DNA of 64,000 bases from a virus (lineage: Duplodnaviria > Heunggongvirae > Uroviricota > Caudoviricetes > Ackermannviridae), in IMG/VR virus record IMGVR_UViG_2974515140_000001, positions 31,280 through 95,279 of that record. One strand, 5' to 3'. Numbering within the stretch: the first letter of the stretch is position 1; every line of letters starts with the position of its first letter. Both the position numbers and the translations under genes were made by a program. The notes beneath the pieces were generated by a model that was not told the origin of the DNA, did no database searches, and saw only the letters and a list, made by a program, of their open reading frames with translations. This document shows positions 16,034 through 26,043 of this stretch, piece by piece.

Positions 16034-16498
16034 ATGGCGCGTAATACGCTGGACATCTTAAAACTTTCAGCTGTCAACGATGAGGCCAGCATTGTTGACT
16101 GTATGGTTGAAGTTCAATTGAACCAAGACAAACCAGGGATTTTCCTGGGTATCAAGGAAACGCTGAGTCGGATAGGGGTTAACACTCGTCAAGAGCCTAA
16201 CACCTTGTATCAAACGTGCCATATCCTGCATAAATTTGGCAGATATCACATCGTGCATTTCAAGCATTTGTTCATGCTAGATGGGCACTACAACGGCTTT
16301 ACGCGTGAAGATGTCCTGCGCATGAATCGGATTATACGGCTTCTGGAGCAATGGAATATGGTTAAGATCTTGCATCCGGAACAAATAACCGAAGTGGCTG
16401 ACATGTCTCGGATCAAAGTTGTAAAACATGACCAAGTTTCTGAGTGGAAACTGGTTCCAAAATACACCATTCGCCCAAGTCGGGCAAAAAGCGAATAA
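16034..16498 (+). CDS. regA: translational repressor RegA
   Basis: LYQTCHILHKFGRYHIVHFKHLFMLDG and the C-terminal EWKLVPKYTI match T4 RegA. Confidence 0.85.
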   Translation: MARNTLDILKLSAVNDEASIVDCMVEVQLNQDKPGIFLGIKETLSRIGVNTRQEPNTLYQTCHILHKFGRYHIVHFKHLFMLDGHYNGFTREDVLRMNRIIRLLEQWNMVKILHPEQITEVADMSRIKVVKHDQVSEWKLVPKYTIRPSRAKSE

Positions 16499-16513
16499 CT
16501 GGAGTCGCTATAT

Positions 16514-17378
16514 TATGACAACTACATTTAATAAAAACGTGAGATTGAATTTGGCTTTTGGTAATGCGGCTGGAGATATTACAGCCCCTGACTTCGGTAA
16601 AATTCGCAATCAGGCCAAACTGGTTCTGGAAGAGACCCGCGAATTACTGGAAGCGGCTTATTTCGATCATGACATCAAACTTGAGCTGGTGGCAACTCCA
16701 AAAGAAGACACCGATGATGTTGATATGGATAAAATCCTGAAAGCCATCATGGACGCTCAGGGTGATATCACAACTGTTAATGACGGCGTGGCCCATATCG
16801 CTGGTTTTAATGGTGATGAATGTTTACAACGTGTGTTTGCCTCTAACATGAGCAAATTTATTCGCTCAGAAGATGAAGTCGGTCCGGCACTGGAATATTA
16901 TTATTCACGCGGTTTCCCAGATGGCCAGTTACGCGTTGAAGGTGAATTCCCTCAGGCATGCATCAAAGTGAATGAGACTGTGATGTGGAATGGCAAAGAA
17001 TATCCGAAAGGAAAATTCCTGAAAAACATGGCTGTGTTCAAAGAGCCTGATTTCTCTGATATGCTGACGAATACCCCTTCCCGTCAGATCAATGACATCG
17101 TTGCCAGCATGGCAATTGAAGAAGGTCAGGTATTTGTTGATGATCTGAACGGCGTGGCGTTGGTATCTCCAAAAACGTTGGAAGTAATTCTTTCTATGGC
17201 AGTTGAAAAATCTTCTCGACCCGTAGATGTTAACGGCCAAATTGAAAGTTATGTGCCAGCGTATATCATTAACGATACCAATATGCCTAAGCTGTGTGGG
17301 GTGTGGGGTGCTAATGTTCGTGTATACGCGTGCGCACCTGTTCAAAACACTGTGACACACCTCTCTCGCTTCGATTAA
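16514..17378 (+). CDS. hypothetical protein (possible MazG-like all-alpha NTP pyrophosphohydrolase N-domain)
   Basis: EETRELLEA helix motif. Occupies the slot where T4 has gene 43. Weak. Confidence 0.3.
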
Positions 17379-17401: not shown

Positions 17402-17430
17402 ACAGAGGCTATAATGGCCTCTGTTTTTGT
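17402..17430 (+). terminator. rho-independent terminator
   Basis: cagaggctataatggcctctg followed by ttttt. Confidence 0.6.
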
Positions 17431-17447
17431 ATTCTAGAGAGGATACC

Positions 17448-18653
17448 ATGAAAGATAAACCACATGACATCCCATATTGCGGTGTCCGTGAAACCAAAAT
17501 CAAATCAGCCCATCCTATGTTAAGTTCATTCCACCGCCAGCTGGCATATGAATGGATGAGGGATCGTTATGCGATACATGTCAAGAAGGACGTGCAATGC
17601 CTTCCAGCGCCATGGACGGATAATCCGGTATTACGCCAAGTCAAGTTTTGTAACGTGCGGAGAGAGCACGATAGGCAGTCTCGAAATTTGATCAATAATA
17701 TCATCCTCGATCAGGATCTCACGCTATCTGACAAAATGTTCAACTGTGTATTGTTCCGCATGTACAACATGTGGGAACCTATACAGGCTTTGGGTGGTCC
17801 ATGGACGATCGAAGAATTCGGAAACATAAATCTTGAATGGTGTCGAGATGTTCTTCAGGAATTCGAATCTAAAGGTGGCAAAGTTTTCACCAATGCGTTT
17901 AATACAGGCGGTCTGAAACAATGCCTGGCTTTCCCTGAACTAGTTGTCAACCACAAGGAGCAACGCTTTGGCGGCATGAAGGTAAAAGTCCATCGGGTTG
18001 GCGGTGTTATAGATGAAATGGATTACAAGGTTGCCAAGAAGCTGGCCGAAGATAATCCTGGTGAATACAAAATAGAAGGCTGGGAACCATACATGCCGAT
18101 GCGAGTCATCCGCTCTTTGAAGGCATTCGTCAACAAACACCCTCATTACTTTGATCGCCTCAGGGAATTTAGCCGTCCCGACTCTGTTTACCAGGCGATG
18201 TATGACGACATTGAGGGGCTTGGACCATTCTTGGCATACCAGATTTGGGTTGATTTTACATACATCGATGAATATCCATTCAGTGAAAACCACTTCACTA
18301 TCGCTGGTCCAGGTTGCCGTGCTGGTATCGATCTGTTATTTTTGGACAAGGACGGCATGACGCATGAAGAATGCATATTCTGGGTTCGTGATCATCAAGA
18401 TCAATTGTTCGCTCAGTACGGGTATAAACGTAATGAATTTTGGTCGGCAGAAGAACCGGAAGACCGTTGCATGAATGTTATGCAGTTGGAGAACATGTTC
18501 TGTGAACTTCAGAAATATACCCGCTGCGTTGAGGCGGTGATGCGCGGGGAGAAACCTCGAGGAAAGGTGGGGTATAATGGTGGTGAAGTTAATCAGCCAT
18601 TACAGAAGACTCCCGTTCGTTCTATTAATCTGTTAGAGAAGATGAAAAAATGA
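17448..18653 (+). CDS. hypothetical 401-aa protein
   Basis: RBS gagagga. No recognisable catalytic motif. Confidence 0.45.
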   Translation: MKDKPHDIPYCGVRETKIKSAHPMLSSFHRQLAYEWMRDRYAIHVKKDVQCLPAPWTDNPVLRQVKFCNVRREHDRQSRNLINNIILDQDLTLSDKMFNCVLFRMYNMWEPIQALGGPWTIEEFGNINLEWCRDVLQEFESKGGKVFTNAFNTGGLKQCLAFPELVVNHKEQRFGGMKVKVHRVGGVIDEMDYKVAKKLAEDNPGEYKIEGWEPYMPMRVIRSLKAFVNKHPHYFDRLREFSRPDSVYQAMYDDIEGLGPFLAYQIWVDFTYIDEYPFSENHFTIAGPGCRAGIDLLFLDKDGMTHEECIFWVRDHQDQLFAQYGYKRNEFWSAEEPEDRCMNVMQLENMFCELQKYTRCVEAVMRGEKPRGKVGYNGGEVNQPLQKTPVRSINLLEKMKK

Positions 18654-19057
18654 AACCCGTAAAACATCATCGTTCATGGAAAGTATGCCCAGCGTGTTCA
18701 AGTCGGGCGACAAAATTGTTCAACATGAATACTGGGAAATATGAATGTCAAGTCTGTCGGCATCATTATGATGATCCAAAATGTCGATCTTTGGTCGACA
18801 AAATTTATAAATTTATCATTTTGTTGGGTAATTGCGAGCAATATCAATATACCGTGTATGGTGATAGTTTAAGCCAGATCGATAAACATCTTTTGAAATT
18901 GATTTCGAAATACGATAAAGAAAGCAAGCGCCCTGTGCGCGTTGTGAGTACTCCAAAGGGTTATCCAAAGGGAACAAGATCAGTTACGGTTGTTGGTTAC
19001 ATCAGTTATGACGGGAAACGGTTCAGAAGTATTCGAGTAAACATGATTCCCGTTTAA
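18650..19057 (+). CDS. zinc-ribbon protein
   Basis: CPAC...CQVC N-terminal ribbon. ATGA overlap with the previous gene. Confidence 0.45.
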   Translation: MKPVKHHRSWKVCPACSSRATKLFNMNTGKYECQVCRHHYDDPKCRSLVDKIYKFIILLGNCEQYQYTVYGDSLSQIDKHLLKLISKYDKESKRPVRVVSTPKGYPKGTRSVTVVGYISYDGKRFRSIRVNMIPV

Positions 19058-19153
19058 ACTTTTCAATAAATCTTTTCAGCGTATATTGACCTCACTTTAA
19101 CGACGCGCCCCGATAAGGGCGCTCACTTTGAACTGAAACAGGAAGACTATACC

Positions 19154-21169
19154 ATGGCAGAATTCAAACCCTTCGCAACGGCAGTTAATAACAACGTGCT
19201 GGCGATGTCCGCAACTGGTCTGTTCATGACCAATATCGATAAAGATGCTCTTTGGGATCTGTATCTGGCATCTTTCCCTGCTGGTACTAACCCGCTGTAC
19301 CGCGAACGTACTGAACACGATTGCACCTGCTGTAAACAATTCATCCGTAACATCGGCGGTGTGGTCACCATCGACTCCGACCTGAACGTAATTTCCATCT
19401 GGGACGGTATTCAGTTGGGTAACGAATACGATGTTGTCGCTGCGGCGCTGTCGGCGTATGTCAAACAACACGCAATCGTCGATGTTTATTTTAACGATAC
19501 CAAGAAAGTCGGTGTTGAGTCGAATCACGAAATGAAAGACGGCAATGTCCGCACCTACAACCACTTTCACACCGACCTGCTGGGTAGCTATGTTCTGCGT
19601 CCGGACGCAATCGCTTCGAAAAAAGGTGAAATCCGCCAGGCTATTGAATTGTTTGAACGCGGTCTGCGTGAAATTACTCTGGAATCAGCTGAAATCGTTC
19701 TGGAACTGATTGACCAGAATTCTCTGTATCGCGGCGCAGAACACAAAGCAGCAGTGAAGGGATTTGTTGAAACCAAAAAGGCATATGAACAAGTCCCCGA
19801 ATCAGCCCGTTCTCTTTGGGCATGGCATACTGGATACCGTTCAAACAATCATGTTCCACACGGCATCCGTAACACAGTTATCGGCACTCTGCTGACAGAT
19901 ATCAGCGAAGGCGTGGAACTGGAAAAGGCTGTTAAATCGTTTGAATCCAAAGTTGCTCCGGCGAACTACAAACGTCCGACAGCGCTGGTTTCAAAATCCA
20001 TGATCGAAAACGCTCAGAAAGAAGTTATTGCTCTGGGTTTGGAAGACTCACTGGCGCGTCGTTATGCGGTTTATGATGATCTGACCATCAACAACGTTCT
20101 GTTTGCCGACCTGGCTGCTCAGAAAGCGATGGATCCGTTTGCTCAGCTGGCCGCCGAAGTGAAAACTCCGACCAAGTCCCTGGAAAAAGTTGAAGAGATC
20201 AGCGTTGATGATTTCCTGAGCAATGTTCTGCCAAAAGCGCATTCAATAGAAGTGCTTGTAGAGAATTCTCACACTAGCAACCTGATGTCCCTGGTTGCTC
20301 CGGCGAACCCAGATGCGCCTAACCTGTTCAAGTGGAACAACGGTTTCTCCTGGTCTTACAACGGTGAAGTGACCGATTCCATTAAAGAACGTGTAAAGGC
20401 TGCTGGCGGTAAAGTTGACGGGTATCTGCGCGTTTCCTTGGCGTGGCACAATAACGACGACCTCGATCTGCATATGTTCAACAACATGGAGCACGTTTAC
20501 TTCCGCGATCGCCGCTCTATGACAGGTGCCCATCTGGATATCGATATGAACGGTATGGATGGTATTGATCCAAACCGCGCTCCGGTGGAAAATATCATCT
20601 TTACAGATGAAAGCAAGCTGCGCGATGGTGAATACCGTTTCGAAATCCACAACTACAATCAACGTGAAAAAATCGACGAAGGGTTTGAAGTCGAAGTAGA
20701 ATACAAAGGCGCAACGCATCGTTTCAGCCATCCTGGCCTGAAAGATCAGGGGCGTATCACTGCAGTCATCCTGACTGTTAAAGACAAACAAGTTGTTGGC
20801 ATTAAGTCCGAACTGGCTAATGTTGATAAGTCTAAAGAAGTTTGGGGTATCAAGACTGCGACCTTCCAGAAAGTACAGCTGGTCCTGAATTCACCAAACC
20901 ATTGGGATGGGGAGCAAACTGGTAACAAGCACGTGTTCTTCATTCTTGAAGGCTGTGCTAATCCTGAAGGTACTCGTGGTTTCTACAACGAATATCTGAA
21001 GCCAGAACTGGATAAACATCGTAAGGTTTTTGAAATGTTGGGTAGTAAAATGAAAGTCCAGCCGAATGAAAACCAACTGTCCGGTCTGGGATTCTCAACG
21101 ACGCAACGCAACCACGTGTTCGTCAAAGTGTCCGGCGCGTTTAACCGTACTGTAAAAGTCATTTTCTAA
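19154..21169 (+). CDS. large hypothetical protein (671 aa)
   Basis: RBS aggaag. First gene of the accessory island. No family recognised by eye. Confidence 0.55.
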   Translation: MAEFKPFATAVNNNVLAMSATGLFMTNIDKDALWDLYLASFPAGTNPLYRERTEHDCTCCKQFIRNIGGVVTIDSDLNVISIWDGIQLGNEYDVVAAALSAYVKQHAIVDVYFNDTKKVGVESNHEMKDGNVRTYNHFHTDLLGSYVLRPDAIASKKGEIRQAIELFERGLREITLESAEIVLELIDQNSLYRGAEHKAAVKGFVETKKAYEQVPESARSLWAWHTGYRSNNHVPHGIRNTVIGTLLTDISEGVELEKAVKSFESKVAPANYKRPTALVSKSMIENAQKEVIALGLEDSLARRYAVYDDLTINNVLFADLAAQKAMDPFAQLAAEVKTPTKSLEKVEEISVDDFLSNVLPKAHSIEVLVENSHTSNLMSLVAPANPDAPNLFKWNNGFSWSYNGEVTDSIKERVKAAGGKVDGYLRVSLAWHNNDDLDLHMFNNMEHVYFRDRRSMTGAHLDIDMNGMDGIDPNRAPVENIIFTDESKLRDGEYRFEIHNYNQREKIDEGFEVEVEYKGATHRFSHPGLKDQGRITAVILTVKDKQVVGIKSELANVDKSKEVWGIKTATFQKVQLVLNSPNHWDGEQTGNKHVFFILEGCANPEGTRGFYNEYLKPELDKHRKVFEMLGSKMKVQPNENQLSGLGFSTTQRNHVFVKVSGAFNRTVKVIF

Positions 21170-21207
21170 TTGATTTTGACCACAAATTCGTAATAAGGAA
21201 CAATGAA

Positions 21208-21579
21208 ATGTTTGATCAAGCAACCCGTTTAAAACTGCGTTTCAACTCTAACAAAGGTCTGCTGTCTGTTGAGCAGGTTTGGGATCTGAACCTGAATGCC
21301 CTAAACGAACTGGCGAAAGACCTCAGCCGTCAGGTGAAGGAAGCCGCCAGCGATGAAGAAGATTTCATCGGCGTGAAAAGCGCAGTCGACTCTCAGTTAC
21401 AACTGCGTTTCGATATCGTGAAAGCGATCATCGGTGTTAAACTGAAAGAACGTGACGAAAGCGCAACCGCCGCCGAACGTAAAGCGAACAACCAGGCGAT
21501 CATGGAACTGATCCAGCGTAAGAAACAGCAGGAACTGGAAGGTCTCTCTGTTGAAGAACTGGAAAAACTCCTGAAATAA
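21208..21579 (+). CDS. hypothetical coiled-coil protein
   Basis: 123 aa with RBS aaggaa. A terminator follows. Confidence 0.45.
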   Translation: MFDQATRLKLRFNSNKGLLSVEQVWDLNLNALNELAKDLSRQVKEAASDEEDFIGVKSAVDSQLQLRFDIVKAIIGVKLKERDESATAAERKANNQAIMELIQRKKQQELEGLSVEELEKLLK

Positions 21580-21601
21580 TCTGTCGGCTCCGGCCTGAGC
21601 A

Positions 21602-21628
21602 ACCCCGCCGTGTGCGGGGTTTCTTTTA
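21602..21628 (+). terminator. rho-independent terminator
   Basis: ccccgccgtgtgcgggg followed by tttctttt. Confidence 0.6.
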
Positions 21629-21638
21629 GGTAAAGAAT

Positions 21639-22013
21639 ATGAAACCTGTCGTCTGTGATTACTGCGGTCAACCTCCTCAATACGTCGGGGGCGATGCTGT
21701 ATACCCCCACCGCCCAGACCTCCGCAATCTGAAGTTCTGGGTATGCACTCCATGTGACGCTCGTGTGGGTTGCCATACCCATGGGGATGGAAAGACCCCT
21801 CTGGGAAGGATGGCGAATGCCGCTCTCCGTGCTGCTAAGCAGGAAGCTCATAGGTCGTTTGACCCTATCTGGAAAAGTGGGCAGAGGAGCAGGAGTGATG
21901 CTTACAGCTGGCTGGCTCATAATCTGGGGATCAAGAAGCGCGATTGCCATATCGGCTTGTTCGATATCGTCATGTGCCGTAAAGTAGTGGAGGTCTGTAA
22001 ACAAATATCATAG
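21639..22013 (+). CDS. DUF3268-like zinc-finger domain protein
   Basis: CDYCG...CTPCDARVGCH...G.MAN..LR..K...H..FD..WKSG..SR..AY.WLA..LGI....CHIG.FD matches the phage zinc-finger-containing domain. Confidence 0.5.
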   Translation: MKPVVCDYCGQPPQYVGGDAVYPHRPDLRNLKFWVCTPCDARVGCHTHGDGKTPLGRMANAALRAAKQEAHRSFDPIWKSGQRSRSDAYSWLAHNLGIKKRDCHIGLFDIVMCRKVVEVCKQIS

Positions 22014-22021
22014 GATAACAC

Positions 22022-22894
22022 ATGACAACTCGTACTGGCATCAAACTCACTCCTGAAGTCCTGAAGTCACATATCGCTGAGGTGATTTACGAAGACCGCG
22101 AAGTCGGCGGTCACCGGGTTATCACTTGTCATTTCAAGATGGATAACGGCTTCGTCGTTCACGGCACCAAGCCCAGCACATCCATAGACCCGGCCAACTT
22201 CGATGAAGCCCTGGGCAAAGAGATTTCCTACAATAACACCTTCGACCAGCTGTGGCAGCTGGAGGCGTACCGGGCGCTTGTTGAACAAGATCTGTTGGCC
22301 AAAGCCACGGAAACGGCAGAGATCCGGATCGATCAATACGCTGTTGAACGTAGCGCCCTCTGCCCGGCCTATCACCTCGGCTTCAATGTGATGATTCAGG
22401 ACGTGATGTTCAGAGCGGAAAATGGCGAGCGCTTCTTGGCGTCTTTCGTTTGTGGGCCGGATGACATGGAACTTGTTGTTGACTCTCACAACGCCAAATC
22501 TCGTAAGGCTGTTAGTGATTTCCTGCGCGCCAACTCCAAACTCGATCTCACTTATTCGCCATTGGTTCTGCGCATCGCCAAGATTTGTCATGAAGCCAAC
22601 CGCGCATACTGCAAGTCTGTTGGTGACGACTCTCAACTGCCTTGGGAACAATCTCCGGCCTGGCAGCGTGAGAGCGCTTGCAAAGGTGTTATCTTCCATC
22701 TCACTGGTGATCGTAAGCCCAGAGAATCGCATGAGAGCTGGATGGCGGAGAAGGAGGCTGAGGGATGGGTGTATGGCCCAGTCAAAGACCCTCAGACCAA
22801 GCAACACCCTTGCATGGTTCCGTATGGAGAACTCCCGGTACAACAACGCTCCAAAGATTATATTTTCAAATCCATTGTAGACTCCTTTAAATAA
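22022..22894 (+). CDS. RyR (ryanodine-receptor) domain protein
   Basis: C-terminal WMAEKEAEGWVYGPVKD...KQHPCMVPYGELPVQQRSKD fits the RyR repeat consensus. Confidence 0.5.
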   Translation: MTTRTGIKLTPEVLKSHIAEVIYEDREVGGHRVITCHFKMDNGFVVHGTKPSTSIDPANFDEALGKEISYNNTFDQLWQLEAYRALVEQDLLAKATETAEIRIDQYAVERSALCPAYHLGFNVMIQDVMFRAENGERFLASFVCGPDDMELVVDSHNAKSRKAVSDFLRANSKLDLTYSPLVLRIAKICHEANRAYCKSVGDDSQLPWEQSPAWQRESACKGVIFHLTGDRKPRESHESWMAEKEAEGWVYGPVKDPQTKQHPCMVPYGELPVQQRSKDYIFKSIVDSFK

Positions 22895-22928
22895 GCTCTG
22901 AATAATATTTCAACCTGTCAATAATATA

Positions 22929-22960
22929 ATGCCCGGTTATATTCAATCGGGCATTTTTAT
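22929..22960 (+). terminator. rho-independent terminator
   Basis: tgcccggttatattcaatcgggca followed by ttttt. Confidence 0.55.
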
Positions 22961-23044
22961 TATATTAATTGGCATCAATACCGCCTGTCGTAATATAATA
23001 GTCCCATGTTGAAATAGTTGGGAAATATAACTCACGAGAGCCTG

Positions 23045-23221
23045 ATGACCGACAACAAATTAAAACGCGCCGGACTTGATTGTCTTGACAATTCATTCCG
23101 TCCCAGTGATGTTCTGGTCGCCCAAATGGAAAACAACCGGGATTTCATTGAAACTATGCTGGAGAACGCCGACGCGAACTCCAAACACTCCAAAGCCCAA
23201 AAAGGTCAAAACGATGATTGA
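23045..23221 (+). CDS. small hypothetical protein
   Basis: 59 aa. Its stop overlaps the start of the vWA gene. Confidence 0.3.
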   Translation: MTDNKLKRAGLDCLDNSFRPSDVLVAQMENNRDFIETMLENADANSKHSKAQKGQNDD

Positions 23222-25430
23222 ATCATTAACATTTAAGAATGCGGTTGCGACCGTCGCGCCGTCTAACCATGTAATCGTTGTAGATATCTCCGGTTCCATG
23301 TATCGTTCACTTCCAGAAGTCCGTAAGCATCTGAAGGAGAACCTGCCTTCCCTGGTGAAACCGGAAGATACTGTGAGCATCCTTTACTTTTCATCTCGCG
23401 GTGATTTCGGAACGGTATTTGCCGGACGTCAGATTAACAGTGCAACCGACCTCAGTGAGATCAATAATCTAATTGACCGTTTCCTGAAGCCTTCTGGTTG
23501 TACTGGTTTTGTTGAGCCGCTGAAACTGGCTGCGGAAACTGCCATTAGCCTGAATAAACCTGGTTATGTTAACAACCTGGCATTCATGACCGACGGATAT
23601 GACAACTGCTGGCGTTCTAATGAAATCCTGGATGCCGCTGAAGTACTGCCCAAAGCGTTTGATAACATTACCTTCATCGAATACGGTTGGTATTGTAATC
23701 GCGAACTGCTGGCGCTAATGGCAGAACGTTCTGGTGCGACCCACGTATTCGCCGAAGGCCAGAATGAATATCAGACCGAATTGGAAAACGTGCTGAAAAC
23801 TTCTTCACCGAAAGTTGTAGTCGATGTTCCTCTGGTTTATACCCATGCCATTTATGTTGAAAATGGCGTGGCGACTGTTTTAGCTGTGCATCCTGATGAA
23901 GAGCACCCTATTGGCCACGTCAGCATCCCTGAAAGCGTTTCTCAGCTGTGGGTTGTAAACCCCAACATGATCGACCAGCTGGACAATCTGGCCGACATCC
24001 AGGCGGCATACGTGCTGGCATTTTATGGCGTGTATACCATGGATGCCGATCTGGTTTGGGCTGCACTGAAGAAGACAGGAGACGTCCGCTTCATCAAACA
24101 GTACAGCAACTGTTTCACCAAGCAGGACTATTCCAACATCAAAGTTGACCTGACCCAGGCTATCGTGGATGAAACTTTGCGCGGCGTAGATGGTATCGAT
24201 TACAACATGGTTCCAGCTGAAGATGCGACGACCATTGTTGATGTCTTGACCTATCTGGCCGAAGCCGACGTCTCTGTTGTCACTAAGCATCCGTTGTTCT
24301 CTTACAACAGCATCGGTCGCGGAACTGTGCAGAAAGTTGATGACACAGAAGACAAGCTGGCTGAACAAATCGCCGAAGCCAAAACCAAAGCAGAGCGTAA
24401 AGCGCTGGCTCTTAAACTGGCCGAGCACGAAGATTGGACGCCGGAATTTACTCCGGTTGACGACAAAGGGATTGTCCCAATTAGCAATCTGGTCTACAAT
24501 TCAGAGCGCCCTAACATCAGCATTCAGACCGTTCAGCACGGGACGGTTGTTGTGCCGGAGTTCGTACAGAAGAAATATGAACTCCCTGAAGAACTGGGAA
24601 CCTGGCGTTATCGTAATTACACCATCGTCAAAGATGGCATCATCAACCTGAAGACGATGCCGATTACTGCTGAATCTCCGATTGTCCGAGCTAAGGTTGT
24701 CCAAGATTTGACTGCCATGGGCGTTAATGTATTTGGTGGTCCGGAAATCTTCATCGTTAATTTAGAAAGCGTTCCAATGGTCAACCGCGCCATGACCAAG
24801 AACATCAGTGCTGCCGAATTCTTCGCTGACAACGTTCGTCGCGAAGCGCTGAAGGCAAAACAGAAAGTTCTGAAATTCTATCGTGATGAACTGGTTGGCA
24901 AAGGTAATGCAACAGGCCTGGCGTCTAAATATGGTAAAGACGCCGCCGATTTCTTGTCAGCAAATGGTATTCGAGACTACGGGTTCTCGCCGAAAACTAC
25001 TTCTGTGGAATCAACCGACGTCTACATGAGTCGTGAACTGAACGTGAAAATCAAAGGTGCTTCGTCGCTGCCGAGTATTGCGTCTGTTGTTAAAAAGCAA
25101 GCAGACGGTAAAAAACTGAATGTCGCTGATCAGTTGATTGCTAATGCTCTGGCCGAATACAACGCTTTTGTTAAATCTCCAATGATCACCAGCGTACCTG
25201 AAGAGACTCAGAAAAAGCTGATTGAAAGTTGGATTGGCGACGCAGCAAAAGCAGCCATCAACGAAGTCCGCGCCCTGAACAAAACGCTGTCTAAAGTAGT
25301 TTACGGCATCGTCGCTGGTCATGGTTGGTTCACTGATTTGGATCTGGAAGAGTCTACGATGGATGTAGAAGTTGATGGGGTGAAATACACCGTCACTGCC
25401 GAACTGGCCGAAAAAGAAATCAAGATCTAA
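23214..25430 (+). CDS. von Willebrand factor A domain protein (739 aa)
   Basis: MIDAS residues VVDISGSM, then T, then MTDGYDN at the N-terminus, followed by about 500 aa of unknown extension. Confidence 0.65.
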   Translation: MIESLTFKNAVATVAPSNHVIVVDISGSMYRSLPEVRKHLKENLPSLVKPEDTVSILYFSSRGDFGTVFAGRQINSATDLSEINNLIDRFLKPSGCTGFVEPLKLAAETAISLNKPGYVNNLAFMTDGYDNCWRSNEILDAAEVLPKAFDNITFIEYGWYCNRELLALMAERSGATHVFAEGQNEYQTELENVLKTSSPKVVVDVPLVYTHAIYVENGVATVLAVHPDEEHPIGHVSIPESVSQLWVVNPNMIDQLDNLADIQAAYVLAFYGVYTMDADLVWAALKKTGDVRFIKQYSNCFTKQDYSNIKVDLTQAIVDETLRGVDGIDYNMVPAEDATTIVDVLTYLAEADVSVVTKHPLFSYNSIGRGTVQKVDDTEDKLAEQIAEAKTKAERKALALKLAEHEDWTPEFTPVDDKGIVPISNLVYNSERPNISIQTVQHGTVVVPEFVQKKYELPEELGTWRYRNYTIVKDGIINLKTMPITAESPIVRAKVVQDLTAMGVNVFGGPEIFIVNLESVPMVNRAMTKNISAAEFFADNVRREALKAKQKVLKFYRDELVGKGNATGLASKYGKDAADFLSANGIRDYGFSPKTTSVESTDVYMSRELNVKIKGASSLPSIASVVKKQADGKKLNVADQLIANALAEYNAFVKSPMITSVPEETQKKLIESWIGDAAKAAINEVRALNKTLSKVVYGIVAGHGWFTDLDLEESTMDVEVDGVKYTVTAELAEKEIKI

Positions 25431-25468
25431 ATCTAATTGGCGGGGCCAACCCGCCTTACTTTCAGGAA

Positions 25469-25786
25469 ATGAATATGAGCAACAAACCGACTTATGTTGA
25501 TGTAATGCGCGTTTTGGCCCAATACGCGTGTGACAATCTAAACATGGAAACTTGGCGCAACGGCGACCATAAAGAAAAGTTCGATAATATCGACGACAAC
25601 ATTGATGCGTTGGCTCCTCTTCGGGCCAAGAGCGATCTTGGTGGTGATGATCTTGACATGATTGAACTCATCATGGAAGTTGAAGAACAATATGATGTTG
25701 AAATCAGCGATGAATGGGTAGGTAAACATGGTGATGACCCCACGCTCGGCGCATTGGCTGAATTGGTAGTTGCCCTCAGTAAGTAA
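25469..25786 (+). CDS. acyl-carrier-protein-like acidic protein lacking the phosphopantetheine Ser
   Basis: DLGGDDLDMIELIMEVEEQYDVEI parallels the ACP [20 protein letters not shown] helix II, but Asp replaces the Ser. Confidence 0.4.
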   Translation: MNMSNKPTYVDVMRVLAQYACDNLNMETWRNGDHKEKFDNIDDNIDALAPLRAKSDLGGDDLDMIELIMEVEEQYDVEISDEWVGKHGDDPTLGALAELVVALSK

Positions 25787-25794
25787 CCAAAAGA

Positions 25795-25821
25795 ATCCCC
25801 AATAAAATATTGGGGATTTTT
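25795..25821 (+). terminator. rho-independent terminator
   Basis: atccccaataaaatattggggat followed by ttttt. Confidence 0.6.
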
Positions 25822-25832
25822 ACTTTTAGGGG

Positions 25833-25861
25833 TTTACTTCCTCTAAAGAATGTCCTATTAT
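25833..25861 (+). promoter_or_regulatory. T4-type early promoter (TTTACT-17-TATTAT)
   Basis: GGTTTACTTCC then 17 nt then TATTAT. A second TTTACT lies 14 nt upstream. Confidence 0.5.
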
Positions 25862-25907
25862 TCAATAACTGGCTAACGTGGGGTTGGCTAGAAAAAGGAG
25901 ATACAAA

Positions 25908-26043
25908 ATGAAACTACCAGGTCACATTGAAGTTTATATGCGGTTATACAAAGAAGGTAACGCCGCTGCTAAAGAACTACACGAACTGATTTTGTCATAC
26001 GGCGTTAAGTCCGTTACAGGAGTAAAGAACAAAAAAAAATAGA
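25908..26043 (+). CDS. small ORF ending at an A9 tract, possibly fused by -1 slippage to the frame ending at 26148
   Basis: Strong RBS aaaaggagatacaaaATG. A stop follows A9 immediately. The -1 frame continues as a coherent peptide (IDGEYVSINGRGLKTNPTYFVGVHLDTGKEVVEIVA). Confidence 0.4.

What the first reader, a model, noticed from the sequence alone, without database searches (positions are those of the whole stretch)
19154..25786. Terminator-bounded accessory island: 671-aa unknown, DUF3268 Zn-finger, RyR-domain, vWA and ACP-like proteins
A 6.6-kb block lies between terminators at 19.1 kb and 25.8 kb, wedged between the regA-region genes and the early small-gene island. It has no counterpart in the T4 gene order. 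It combines a 671-aa protein of unrecognised family and a 739-aa protein whose N-terminal 230 aa form a complete vWA/MIDAS domain (DxSxS...T...D). With them sit a DUF3268-like zinc-finger protein, a RyR-domain protein and an acidic ACP-like protein. vWA, RyR and zinc-finger modules recur in bacterial and phage conflict or signalling systems. Their co-occurrence here as one transcription unit with its own internal terminators suggests a phage accessory system rather than replication or structural genes. The partner of the vWA protein (the 671-aa ORF) carries no recognisable ATPase motif. I could not recognise this exact combination from memory.
Basis: partly seen in the sequence, partly recalled or inferred. 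Interest (0 to 1): 0.75.

Follow-up and report, generated by a model that had tools for sequence, protein, structure and literature searches.

The report
Mosaic phage block with anti-Thoeris gene
This 6.6-kb stretch of a Salmonella phage is not one new system but several unrelated gene modules that sit side by side in this phage family; one is a recently described family of proteins that disarm the bacterial Thoeris defence, and another is a very widespread two-gene pair whose function is still unknown.

Summary
The window is Salmonella phage bering (Kuttervirus, Ackermannviridae). The block is genes bering_53 to bering_59. The ORFs and domain calls are real, and the gene order is kept across Ackermannviridae, so it is a family-wide syntenic segment rather than a strain-specific island.

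It is a mosaic, not one system:
[quoted passage not shown] It keeps H237, W240, H262 and D279. Sister phages carry the NARP1 NAD+-rebuilding genes directly downstream.
- **738-aa vWA protein.** Its MIDAS motif is complete and conserved. It is a stand-alone gene in T4-like, pf16-like and jumbo phages.
- **ACP-like protein.** It lacks the phosphopantetheine serine (Asp or Glu across its clade).

No PADLOC, ATPase, CobT, rII or Alt match was found. Interest is moderate.

The parts
19102..19124 (+). GC-rich hairpin between the upstream Zn-ribbon gene and the 671-aa gene; a weak terminator candidate with no U-tract
   Evidence: Folds at -13.6 kcal/mol, z -3.2. Not called by the terminator scan. Sequence read.
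19154..21169 (+). bering_53, 671 aa, DUF8224 (PF26675) / PHROG 1735. Multidomain: N-terminal alpha/beta region with invariant D56, C57, C60 and H137; a helical region; a beta-rich C-terminal half with invariant D436, D438, D462, D464, E479 and N480
21208..21579 (+). bering_54, 123 aa, PHROG 2018; the obligate neighbour of DUF8224
   Evidence: A homologue lies adjacent and on the same strand in 84/85 loci by phmmer. The 85th, BCP12, has it split into two ORFs. 37% identity to phiCbK gp047. No Pfam or PDB hit.
21601..21621 (+). Internal hairpin with a short U-tract after the 123-aa gene
   Evidence: Terminator scan. Folds at -16.5 kcal/mol.
21639..22013 (+). bering_55, 124 aa, DUF3268 zinc-finger protein (8 Cys, pI 9.2); a variable member of the block
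   Evidence: PF11672 E 7e-38. Absent in Serratia phage Kevin and in some Kuttervirus and Taipeivirus-like loci. No Rfam DUF3268 RNA motif upstream.
22022..22894 (+). bering_56, 290 aa. N-terminal PF13876 (N4 gp49 / Sf6 gp66) domain plus a C-terminal RyR R12-like domain. [quoted passage not shown]
   Evidence: Pfam hits. PDB RyR repeats, E 1e-19. 287/290 identical to homologue H6 of PMC13232231. H237, W240, H262 and D279 align with RyDEP H75, W78, H100 and D117, and A219 stands in place of Q54.
22928..22955 (+). Intrinsic terminator ending the first unit
   Evidence: 11-bp stem followed by UUUUUAUUAU. Folds at -16.9 kcal/mol, z -4.6.
22969..22996 (+). Sigma-70-like promoter candidate (TTGGCA, 16 nt spacer, TAATAT) for the second unit. 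The junction 22.9-23.0 kb is where relatives carry NARP1-type genes
   Evidence: Promoter scan. Prs-like plus Nampt-like genes sit here in SenASZ3, and a Nampt-like gene in Ag3.
23045..23221 (+). bering_57, 58 aa, acidic, PHROG 11447. Its stop overlaps the vWA start codon (ATGATTGA), which suggests translational coupling
   Evidence: Homologue in Ag3. Found only in Ackermannviridae-type loci.
23214..25430 (+). bering_58, 738 aa. N-terminal vWA domain with a complete MIDAS motif, then a beta-sandwich, then about 440 aa of unidentified fold. PHROG 2426
25439..25455 (+). Short GC hairpin between the vWA and ACP-like genes
   Evidence: Folds at -13.7 kcal/mol.
25469..25786 (+). bering_59, 105 aa, pI 4.1. 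ACP-fold protein that lacks the phosphopantetheine-attachment serine (Asp60)
   Evidence: PF00550. HMMER alignment to B. subtilis ACP shows DSLD replaced by DDLD. Asp or Glu at this position in all close relatives, Ser only in distant hits.
25794..25818 (+). Strong intrinsic terminator closing the block, followed by a promoter-like site at 25833-25861
   Evidence: Folds at -17.1 kcal/mol, z -4.3.

Best explanation
The block is a conserved, co-directional stretch of non-structural genes in Ackermannviridae. It lies between the clamp-loader / regA / MazG / thymidine-hypermodification genes and a run of small genes. It is a mosaic of independently inherited modules arranged in two promoter- and terminator-bounded units. 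It is not one multi-protein machine.

Module A is DUF8224 (671 aa) plus its 123-aa partner. This is a tightly linked two-gene cassette found in thousands of virulent phages. I infer that the two proteins work together as a complex. The strong purifying selection and the frequent DNA ligase, DNA polymerase and DnaB neighbours suggest an enzymatic or nucleic-acid-related housekeeping role rather than a fast-evolving inhibitor. The biochemical activity is unknown.

Module B is the 290-aa RyR-domain protein, accompanied in some phages by the DUF3268 zinc-finger protein. The RyR protein is a RyDEP-family immune-evasion protein. On the published model, the C-terminal R12-like domain dimerises and captures the TIR-made Thoeris signals 3'cADPR and 2'cADPR in a pocket lined by H237, W240, H262 and D279. 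This would keep the ThsA-type effector switched off. It most likely acts as a sponge rather than a glycosidase. In sister phages the NARP1 genes, inserted immediately downstream, add NAD+ reconstitution.

Module C is the 58-aa ORF plus the stand-alone vWA protein. I infer that the vWA protein uses its MIDAS metal site to bind an acidic residue of an unknown host or phage protein.

Module D is an ACP-fold protein that cannot carry a prosthetic group. I infer that it acts as a decoy or adaptor through the conserved acidic helix II.

Shown: the anatomy, the family memberships, the linkage statistics and the identity to a tested RyDEP homologue. Inferred: every biochemical activity in this phage.
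For: - **Identity and synteny.**
- **Two units.**
- **Module A linkage.** 85/85 loci keep the pair, mostly with 9-60 nt between the genes. No other gene family is shared by more than 10 of 68 non-Ackermannviridae loci. The commonest neighbours are a DNA ligase-like protein, DNA polymerases and DnaB.
- **Module A conservation.** 44-52% identity across phiCbK, phiRSL1, Bacillus, N4-like and Vequintavirinae-like phages, with 79 invariant columns.
- **Module B.** PF02026 hit. 287/290 identity to H6, with one substitution in the cloned R12 part. Residue mapping. 59% identity to H7, a validated nanomolar sponge with anti-Thoeris activity in vivo. RyDEP itself sits inside a NARP1 operon. Prs-like plus Nampt-like genes lie directly after the RyR gene in SenASZ3, and a Nampt-like gene in Ag3.
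- **Module C.** MIDAS motif and fold. The gene stands alone, flanked by annotated promoter and/or terminator features, in Miro and pf16, and has no shared neighbours in Goe21. It has no conserved neighbour in 54 loci.
- **Module D.** Ser replaced by Asp or Glu across the clade.
Against: - The H6-specific binding result is only in a figure that I could not read. Two of the eight tested homologues did not bind, so H6 may be one of them.
- The paper tested only residues 179-290. The N-terminal 178 aa may give the full protein a different role.
- Gene order is conserved across a whole phage family, which could still reflect functional coupling that phylogenetic profiles cannot exclude within that family.
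- The sampled loci were the 80 best matches per search, so more distant relatives might show other linkages.
- No expression data were examined.
- For modules A, C and D there is no functional evidence at all.
Confidence: 0.7

Rival explanations
1. The seven genes form one accessory conflict or signalling system, in which the vWA protein and the 671-aa protein are partners and the zinc-finger, RyR and ACP-like proteins are accessory subunits.
For: The genes are co-directional and tightly packed, and their order is conserved in Ackermannviridae. The vWA, RyR and zinc-finger modules do occur in conflict systems, and the RyR protein is a conflict protein.
Against: Outside Ackermannviridae the components never co-occur. 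0 of 68 DUF8224 loci have the vWA, ACP-like or p58 genes, and 0 of 54 vWA loci have the DUF8224, p123, RyR or ACP-like genes. A strong terminator and a promoter-like site split the block, and relatives insert other genes there. DUF3268 is missing in some family members. There is no PADLOC hit and no ATPase.
Confidence: 0.06
2. The whole block is an anti-defence island. Each module independently counters a different host immune system, and the modules have gathered around the RyDEP / NARP1 hot spot.
For: The RyDEP-family gene and the NARP1 insertions in relatives lie at the centre of the block. Counter-defence genes tend to cluster (general knowledge). The vWA gene behaves like a moron, flanked by annotated promoter and/or terminator features in other phages. 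A serine-less ACP mimic looks like a decoy.
Against: DUF8224 and p123 are far more conserved (about 45-50% identity across phage families) and more widespread than typical anti-defence genes. They usually sit among replication genes. No member other than the RyR protein matches any described anti-defence family. My literature searches found nothing for the vWA, ACP-like or DUF8224 proteins.
Confidence: 0.17
3. The block belongs functionally to the thymidine-hypermodification pathway encoded just upstream (the MazG-like and HMUDK_hel genes). The ACP-like, vWA or DUF8224 proteins would then serve as carriers or scaffolds for DNA modification.
For: The block directly follows the HMUDK_hel gene (E 1.7e-83) in all Ackermannviridae examined. 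DUF8224 commonly neighbours DNA-metabolism genes. phiRSL1 has both DUF8224 and an HMUDK homologue (annotation notes).
Against: HMUDK homologues occur mainly in Vibrio, Microbacterium and Pseudomonas phages. DUF8224 is found in Bacillus, Caulobacter, Xanthomonas and N4-like phages. 0 of 68 non-Ackermannviridae DUF8224 loci have an HMUDK or MazG homologue within 8 kb. The ACP-like protein cannot carry a thioester-linked group.
Confidence: 0.07

Closest known systems
RyDEP family (phage RyR R12-domain defence-evasion proteins; Lopez Rivera et al., bioRxiv 2026, PMC13232231)
   Same: PF02026 domain. 99% identical to the tested homologue H6. 59% identical to the validated sponge H7 and 66% to H8 over the R12 part. 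All four ligand or catalytic residues are kept. NARP1 genes lie next to it in sister phages, as for RyDEP in DyoEdafos.
   Different: It carries an extra 178-aa N-terminal part (PF13876 domain plus linker) that was not studied. Ala stands in place of RyDEP Q54, as in the six tested homologues that could be aligned (H1, H4-H8); the paper reports that none of H1-H8 cleaves. No NARP1 genes lie next to it in this phage.
DUF8224 (Pfam PF26675) / PHROG 1735 with PHROG 2018
   Same: The 671-aa protein is a full-length member, and the 123-aa partner is adjacent as everywhere else.
   Different: Nothing functional is known for the family, and no paper mentions it. The pairing with the 123-aa protein and the TerD-like fold are my observations.
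TerD / TerD-domain tellurite-resistance proteins (2kxt, 2qz7)
   Different: No sequence-level signal was found (no Pfam hit; the hhalign test was negative). It is one domain of a 671-aa protein, with no ter operon context. The vWA protein nearby is not a TerY-type partner, because the two genes do not co-occur elsewhere.
vWA plus beta-sandwich proteins (4fx5, ITIH heavy chains, archaeal ArnB / Sec23-24 trunk); MoxR-vWA and CobS-CobT pairs
   Different: There is no AAA+ (MoxR, CobS or BchI type) partner. The gene stands alone, and its 440-aa C-terminal region has no identified fold. It is not the N4 gp24/gp25 pair: in an N4-like phage those are an AAA ATPase plus a DUF2201 protein.
Acyl carrier protein (PF00550; E. 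coli AcpP, B. subtilis AcpA)
   Same: ACP sequence signature around helix II (DLGxDxLDxxELxMxxEEE), small size and very acidic.
   Different: The prosthetic-group serine is Asp here, and Asp or Glu throughout the phage clade. It has a longer N-terminus and a clade-specific GDDPT(L/I)G motif. It therefore cannot be a carrier.

Membership tests
RyDEP / RyR R12-domain (PF02026) | Significant match to the RyR-domain profile | tested here: met
   PF02026 41.4 bits against a cut-off of 27.4. PDB RyR repeats E 1e-19. A 139-aa chain, 35tm, named 'Ryr domain-containing protein', E 4e-11.
RyDEP / RyR R12-domain (PF02026) | Ligand-binding and catalytic residues H75, W78, H100 and D117 of DyoEdafos RyDEP | tested here: met
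   They align with H237, W240, H262 and D279 at identical spacing.
RyDEP / RyR R12-domain (PF02026) | Q54, a residue mutated in the paper and present in the only glycosidase-active member | tested here: not met
   Ala219 here. H1 and H4-H8, none of which cleaves according to the paper, have Ala, Ile or Ser at this position. This argues for a sponge rather than an enzyme.
RyDEP / RyR R12-domain (PF02026) | Binding of 2'cADPR or 3'cADPR and rescue from Thoeris defence | not testable with these tools
   H6, which is 99% identical, was assayed, but the result is only in Fig. 4f. The text says 6 of 8 homologues bind and that none of H1-H8 cleaves.
RyDEP / RyR R12-domain (PF02026) | Genomic association with NARP1 (Adps plus Namat) | tested here: inconclusive
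   Absent in the window. Present immediately downstream in Kuttervirus SenASZ3, and the Nampt-like gene alone in Ag3. The assignment to NARP1 rests on annotation and gene order only.
vWA / MIDAS proteins | DxSxS...T...D MIDAS motif and vWA fold | tested here: met
MoxR-vWA / CobS-CobT / BchI-BchD type pairs | Adjacent AAA+ ATPase partner | tested here: not met
   No Walker A motif in any block protein. No conserved neighbour of the vWA gene in 54 loci. No CobT, CobS or BchD Pfam or NCBIfam hit.
Acyl carrier protein (PF00550) | Profile match | tested here: met
   29.2 bits against a cut-off of 20.8. PDB ACPs at E 3e-7. All NCBIfam ACP models score below their cut-offs.
Acyl carrier protein (PF00550) | Conserved Ser of the DSL motif that receives 4'-phosphopantetheine | tested here: not met
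   Asp60 here. Asp or Glu in Ag3, Kevin and 11 further close relatives, Ser only in distant hits.
DUF8224 (PF26675) | Full-length homology to family members | tested here: met
   Homologues at 49-95% identity over 100% of the length all carry PF26675, which is named DUF8224. The model is absent from the local Pfam copy, so the window protein itself was not scanned against it. PHROG 1735 matches residues 1-671.
TerD domain (tellurite resistance) | TerD beta-sandwich fold | tested here: inconclusive
TerD domain (tellurite resistance) | Sequence-profile membership | tested here: not met
   No Pfam hit even at E 10 on the isolated segments. No PDB profile hit.
N4 gp24 / gp25 core pair | Homology of the 671-aa and vWA proteins to gp24 and gp25 | tested here: not met
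   In N4-like Piffle the genes at the gp24/gp25 position are an AAA ATPase and a DUF2201 vWA-like protein. The DUF8224 homologue is a different gene, gp34.
Known anti-phage defence systems (PADLOC) | Match to any defence-system protein model | tested here: not met
   0 hits for all seven proteins.
   No such Pfam, PHROG or NCBIfam hit.

The most novel reading that the evidence does not exclude
DUF8224 and its 120-140-aa partner form a previously undescribed two-protein phage machine that is kept in thousands of unrelated virulent phages. It has a Cys2-His-Asp metal site and a TerD-like Ca2+-binding sandwich. Its activity, whether in nucleic-acid or nucleotide metabolism or as a broadly acting counter-defence, has no homologue among characterised systems. 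In Ackermannviridae it would sit with a serine-less ACP decoy and a stand-alone MIDAS protein in a counter-defence neighbourhood anchored by RyDEP and NARP1.
Probability: 0.25. Interest if true: 0.7.

Novelty: new member of a known kind. Interest (0 to 1): 0.35.

Why it matters
- **Annotation.** The work re-annotates a "hypothetical" region found in hundreds of Ackermannviridae genomes, many of which are candidates for therapy or biocontrol. One gene is a near-identical copy of a tested RyDEP-family homologue and a predicted anti-Thoeris protein. The junction beside it is where sister phages plug in NAD+-reconstitution genes. This bears on predicting host range against Thoeris and NAD+-depleting defences.
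- **A target for experiments.** The DUF8224 / 123-aa cassette is one of the most conserved and widespread phage gene pairs with no known function.
- **A possible decoy.** A clade of ACP-fold proteins that cannot be phosphopantetheinylated may be a host-protein mimic.
- **A caution.** Co-linear domain combinations within one phage family can look like a "system" when they are not.

Tried and rejected
- **N4 gp24/gp25.** I recalled that gp24 (unknown) and gp25 (vWFA) are core N4 genes, and the literature confirmed it. The Piffle annotation shows those are an AAA ATPase and a DUF2201 protein, so they are unrelated to this block.
- **TerD membership by sequence.** Negative.
- **Function from structure.**
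  - The BFVD search returned only uncharacterised phage and giant-virus proteins.
  - The afdb50 library was not available.
- **The 123-aa protein.** A PDB search with its profile found nothing.
- **Rfam.** No family was found in the window, and no DUF3268 RNA motif lies upstream of the DUF3268 gene.
- **Late promoter.** The T4-type motif TATAAATA does not occur in the block.
- **Link to thymidine hypermodification.** The distributions do not match.
- **NARP3.** It consists of PnuC and NadR and is unrelated.
- **Literature searches.**
  - Nothing relevant turned up for vWA or ACP anti-defence roles, or for DUF8224.
  - A search on Ackermannviridae transcriptomes was uninformative.
Full report
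**Identity of the window.** Bases 19000-26000 are 100% identical to Salmonella phage bering, MT074472.1 (Kuttervirus, Cvivirinae, Ackermannviridae). A window coordinate equals the record coordinate minus 31278. The block corresponds to bering_53 to bering_59. Upstream lie the sliding clamp, the clamp loader, a regA-like repressor and a MazG-like pyrophosphatase (16428-17378). Next comes a 408-aa protein with the Pfam HMUDK_hel domain (E 1.7e-83), which is a thymidine-hypermodification enzyme family, and then a 135-aa zinc-ribbon protein. Downstream is a run of small genes.

**Check of the observation.** The listed ORFs and domain calls are all real.
- DUF3268 scores 130 bits.
- The 290-aa protein has an N-terminal PF13876 (N4 gp49 / Sf6 gp66) domain and a single RyR repeat at residues 230-280. 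The repeat matches animal and bacterial RyR repeat structures at E 1e-19.
- No protein in the block has a Walker A motif.

One is the 123-aa gene at 21208-21579. The other is the 58-aa gene at 23045-23221, whose stop codon overlaps the vWA start.

The hairpins at 21601, 22928, 25439 and 25794 fold well, and the ones at 22928 and 25794 are textbook terminators. The hairpin at 19.1 kb has no U-tract. A terminator at 22928-22955 followed by a promoter-like site at 22969-22996 divides the block into two units.

**The block is a family-wide syntenic segment.** The order is:

MazG, HMUDK_hel, (Zn-ribbon), 671 aa, 123 aa, (DUF3268), RyR, [insert], p58, vWA, [inserts], ACP-like.

It recurs in Kuttervirus, Agtrevirus Ag3, Miltonvirus (Serratia phage Kevin) and Taipeivirus-like genomes. 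The bracketed members are variable. Composition is only slightly different from the flanks.

**The components have independent histories.**
- The 671-aa protein has more than 7,700 homologues, all carrying Pfam PF26675, which is DUF8224. tblastn finds it in 560 phage records. These include phiCbK, phiRSL1, Bacillus Tsarbombavirus, N4-like Schitoviridae, Vequintavirinae-like phages, Alteromonas and Vibrio phages, Microcystis phages and Cellulophaga phages. Identity is 31-52% over the full length.
- I fetched 80 IMG/VR loci and five GenBank loci with 8-kb flanks and searched all ORFs. The 123-aa protein has a homologue in 84 of 85 loci. It is always on the same strand, usually 9-60 nt downstream and in three loci immediately upstream. 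In the 85th locus (BCP12) it is present but split into two ORFs.
- In the 68 non-Ackermannviridae loci no vWA, ACP-like, p58, HMUDK or MazG homologue lies within 8 kb. DUF3268 occurs in three of them and a RyR protein in one. No other gene family is shared by more than 10 loci. The commonest neighbours are a DNA ligase-like protein, DNA polymerases and DnaB.
- Conversely, I examined 75 loci anchored on the vWA protein. The 54 that are not Ackermannviridae are Slopekvirus and Karamvirus-type T4-like phages, pf16-like phages and contigs of 300-510 kb. None of them has any of the other block genes except one DUF3268, and none has a conserved neighbour.
- In Miro and pf16 the vWA gene is flanked by annotated promoter and/or terminator features. 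In Goe21 it shares no neighbours with the block.

The proposed 671-aa plus vWA partnership is therefore not supported. The true two-gene module is DUF8224 plus the 123-aa protein.

**The RyR-domain protein.** A literature search on the NAMPT-type genes seen in relatives led to a May 2026 preprint (PMC13232231). Its main findings are:
- It defines RyDEP, a mycobacteriophage PF02026 protein inserted in a NARP1 operon.
- Six of eight other phage homologues bind these signals, and none cleaves them.
- H4 and H7 are nanomolar sponges that rescue phages from Thoeris in vivo.

Supplementary Table 1 gives the sequences. Homologue H6 (UniProt A0A0C5PQF8, Salmonella) is 287/290 identical to the window protein, with one substitution in the cloned part, residues 179-290. 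RyDEP H75, W78, H100 and D117 align with H237, W240, H262 and D279. RyDEP Q54 is Ala219 here, and Ala, Ile or Ser in H1 and H4-H8, none of which cleaves.

The gene is therefore a RyDEP-family member, most likely of the sponge type. Whether H6 itself was among the six binders is shown only in a figure that I could not read.

In Kuttervirus SenASZ3 a Prs-like gene followed by a Nampt-like gene lies directly after the RyR gene. This is the NARP1 layout described in bioRxiv 10.1101/2024.02.11.579819. The pair sits exactly at the terminator/promoter junction. Ag3 has the Nampt-like gene there, and bering has neither.

**DUF8224.**
- Its model (pLDDT 82.5, pTM 0.50) has an N-terminal alpha/beta region, a helical region and a beta-rich C-terminal half.
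- Sequence methods do not see TerD.
- The N-terminal region has invariant D56, C57, C60 and H137, which is a possible metal site.
- BFVD gave only uncharacterised relatives, and no paper mentions DUF8224.

I infer that DUF8224 and the 123-aa protein act together, and that the strong conservation and the replication-gene neighbourhoods favour a housekeeping enzymatic role. This is a weak inference.

**The ACP-like protein.** It passes the PF00550 threshold, but every NCBIfam ACP model scores below its cut-off. HMMER alignment to B. subtilis ACP and MAFFT alignment to E. coli AcpP both put Asp60 where the phosphopantetheine serine should be. I searched 1.8 billion representative proteins and aligned a selection of the hits. 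The close clade all have Asp or Glu there: P0241-P0246, P0248, P0252, P0254, P0258 and P0260, together with the Ag3 and Kevin proteins aligned. Only distant hits have Ser. It cannot be a carrier. I infer a decoy or adaptor role through the retained acidic helix II.

**Other checks.** PADLOC gave no hits. Rfam gave none, including no DUF3268 RNA motif. No rII, Alt or CobT assignment was found. The N4 gp24/gp25 idea was tested and rejected. A link to the upstream hypermodification gene is not supported by the distributions.

**Verdict.** The interpretation as one new accessory system is not. The region is a mosaic, and one module belongs to a family that has already been characterised. The DUF8224 / 123-aa cassette and the serine-less ACP clade are the parts that remain open.

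Noticed in passing
window 17427-18653 (+), with 16428-17378 upstream: A 408-aa protein with the Pfam HMUDK_hel domain (5-hmdU DNA kinase helical domain, E 1.7e-83). One relative annotates it as aGPT-Pplase1. It is preceded by a MazG-like pyrophosphatase. These are thymidine-hypermodification genes directly upstream of the block.
   Followed up: partly
L091 (Salmonella phage SenASZ3) 4335-6850; L009 (Shigella phage Ag3) 6878-8521; the equivalent site is window 22.9-23.0 kb: Sister phages carry a Prs-like plus Nampt-like pair (the NARP1 layout), or the Nampt-like gene alone, inserted exactly between the RyR gene's terminator and the p58/vWA promoter. Phage bering lacks them. The junction is an insertion hot spot for NAD+-related counter-defence genes.
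   Followed up: partly
window 25469-25786: The ACP-like protein and its whole phage clade have Asp or Glu instead of the phosphopantetheine-attachment serine. They also share a GDDPT(L/I)G motif near the C-terminus.
   Followed up: yes
window 19154-21169; GenBank records MH523359.1 and MW006476.1: Some deposited annotations call the DUF8224 protein a "DNA-directed RNA polymerase". No profile or fold search supports this, so it looks like a propagated mis-annotation.
   Followed up: partly
L004 (Bacillus phage BCP12) 10134-10453: The homologue of the 123-aa partner is split into two overlapping ORFs, which is probably a frameshift or a sequencing error in that record.
   Followed up: yes
window 18650-19057: A 135-aa basic zinc-ribbon protein (PHROG 16119) between the HMUDK_hel gene and DUF8224. 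It is present in only some Ackermannviridae loci (7 of 85 DUF8224 loci).
   Followed up: no
L122, L130, L133, L137, L141 and other IMG/VR loci: Homologues of the stand-alone vWA protein occur on viral contigs of 300-510 kb (jumbo phages) at about 33-35% identity.
   Followed up: no
window 22022-22555 (residues 1-178 of the RyR protein): The R12 domain is fused to a PF13876 (N4 gp49 / Sf6 gp66) domain and a linker that the RyDEP study did not test. PHROG hits show the two halves also occur separately in other phage proteins.
   Followed up: no
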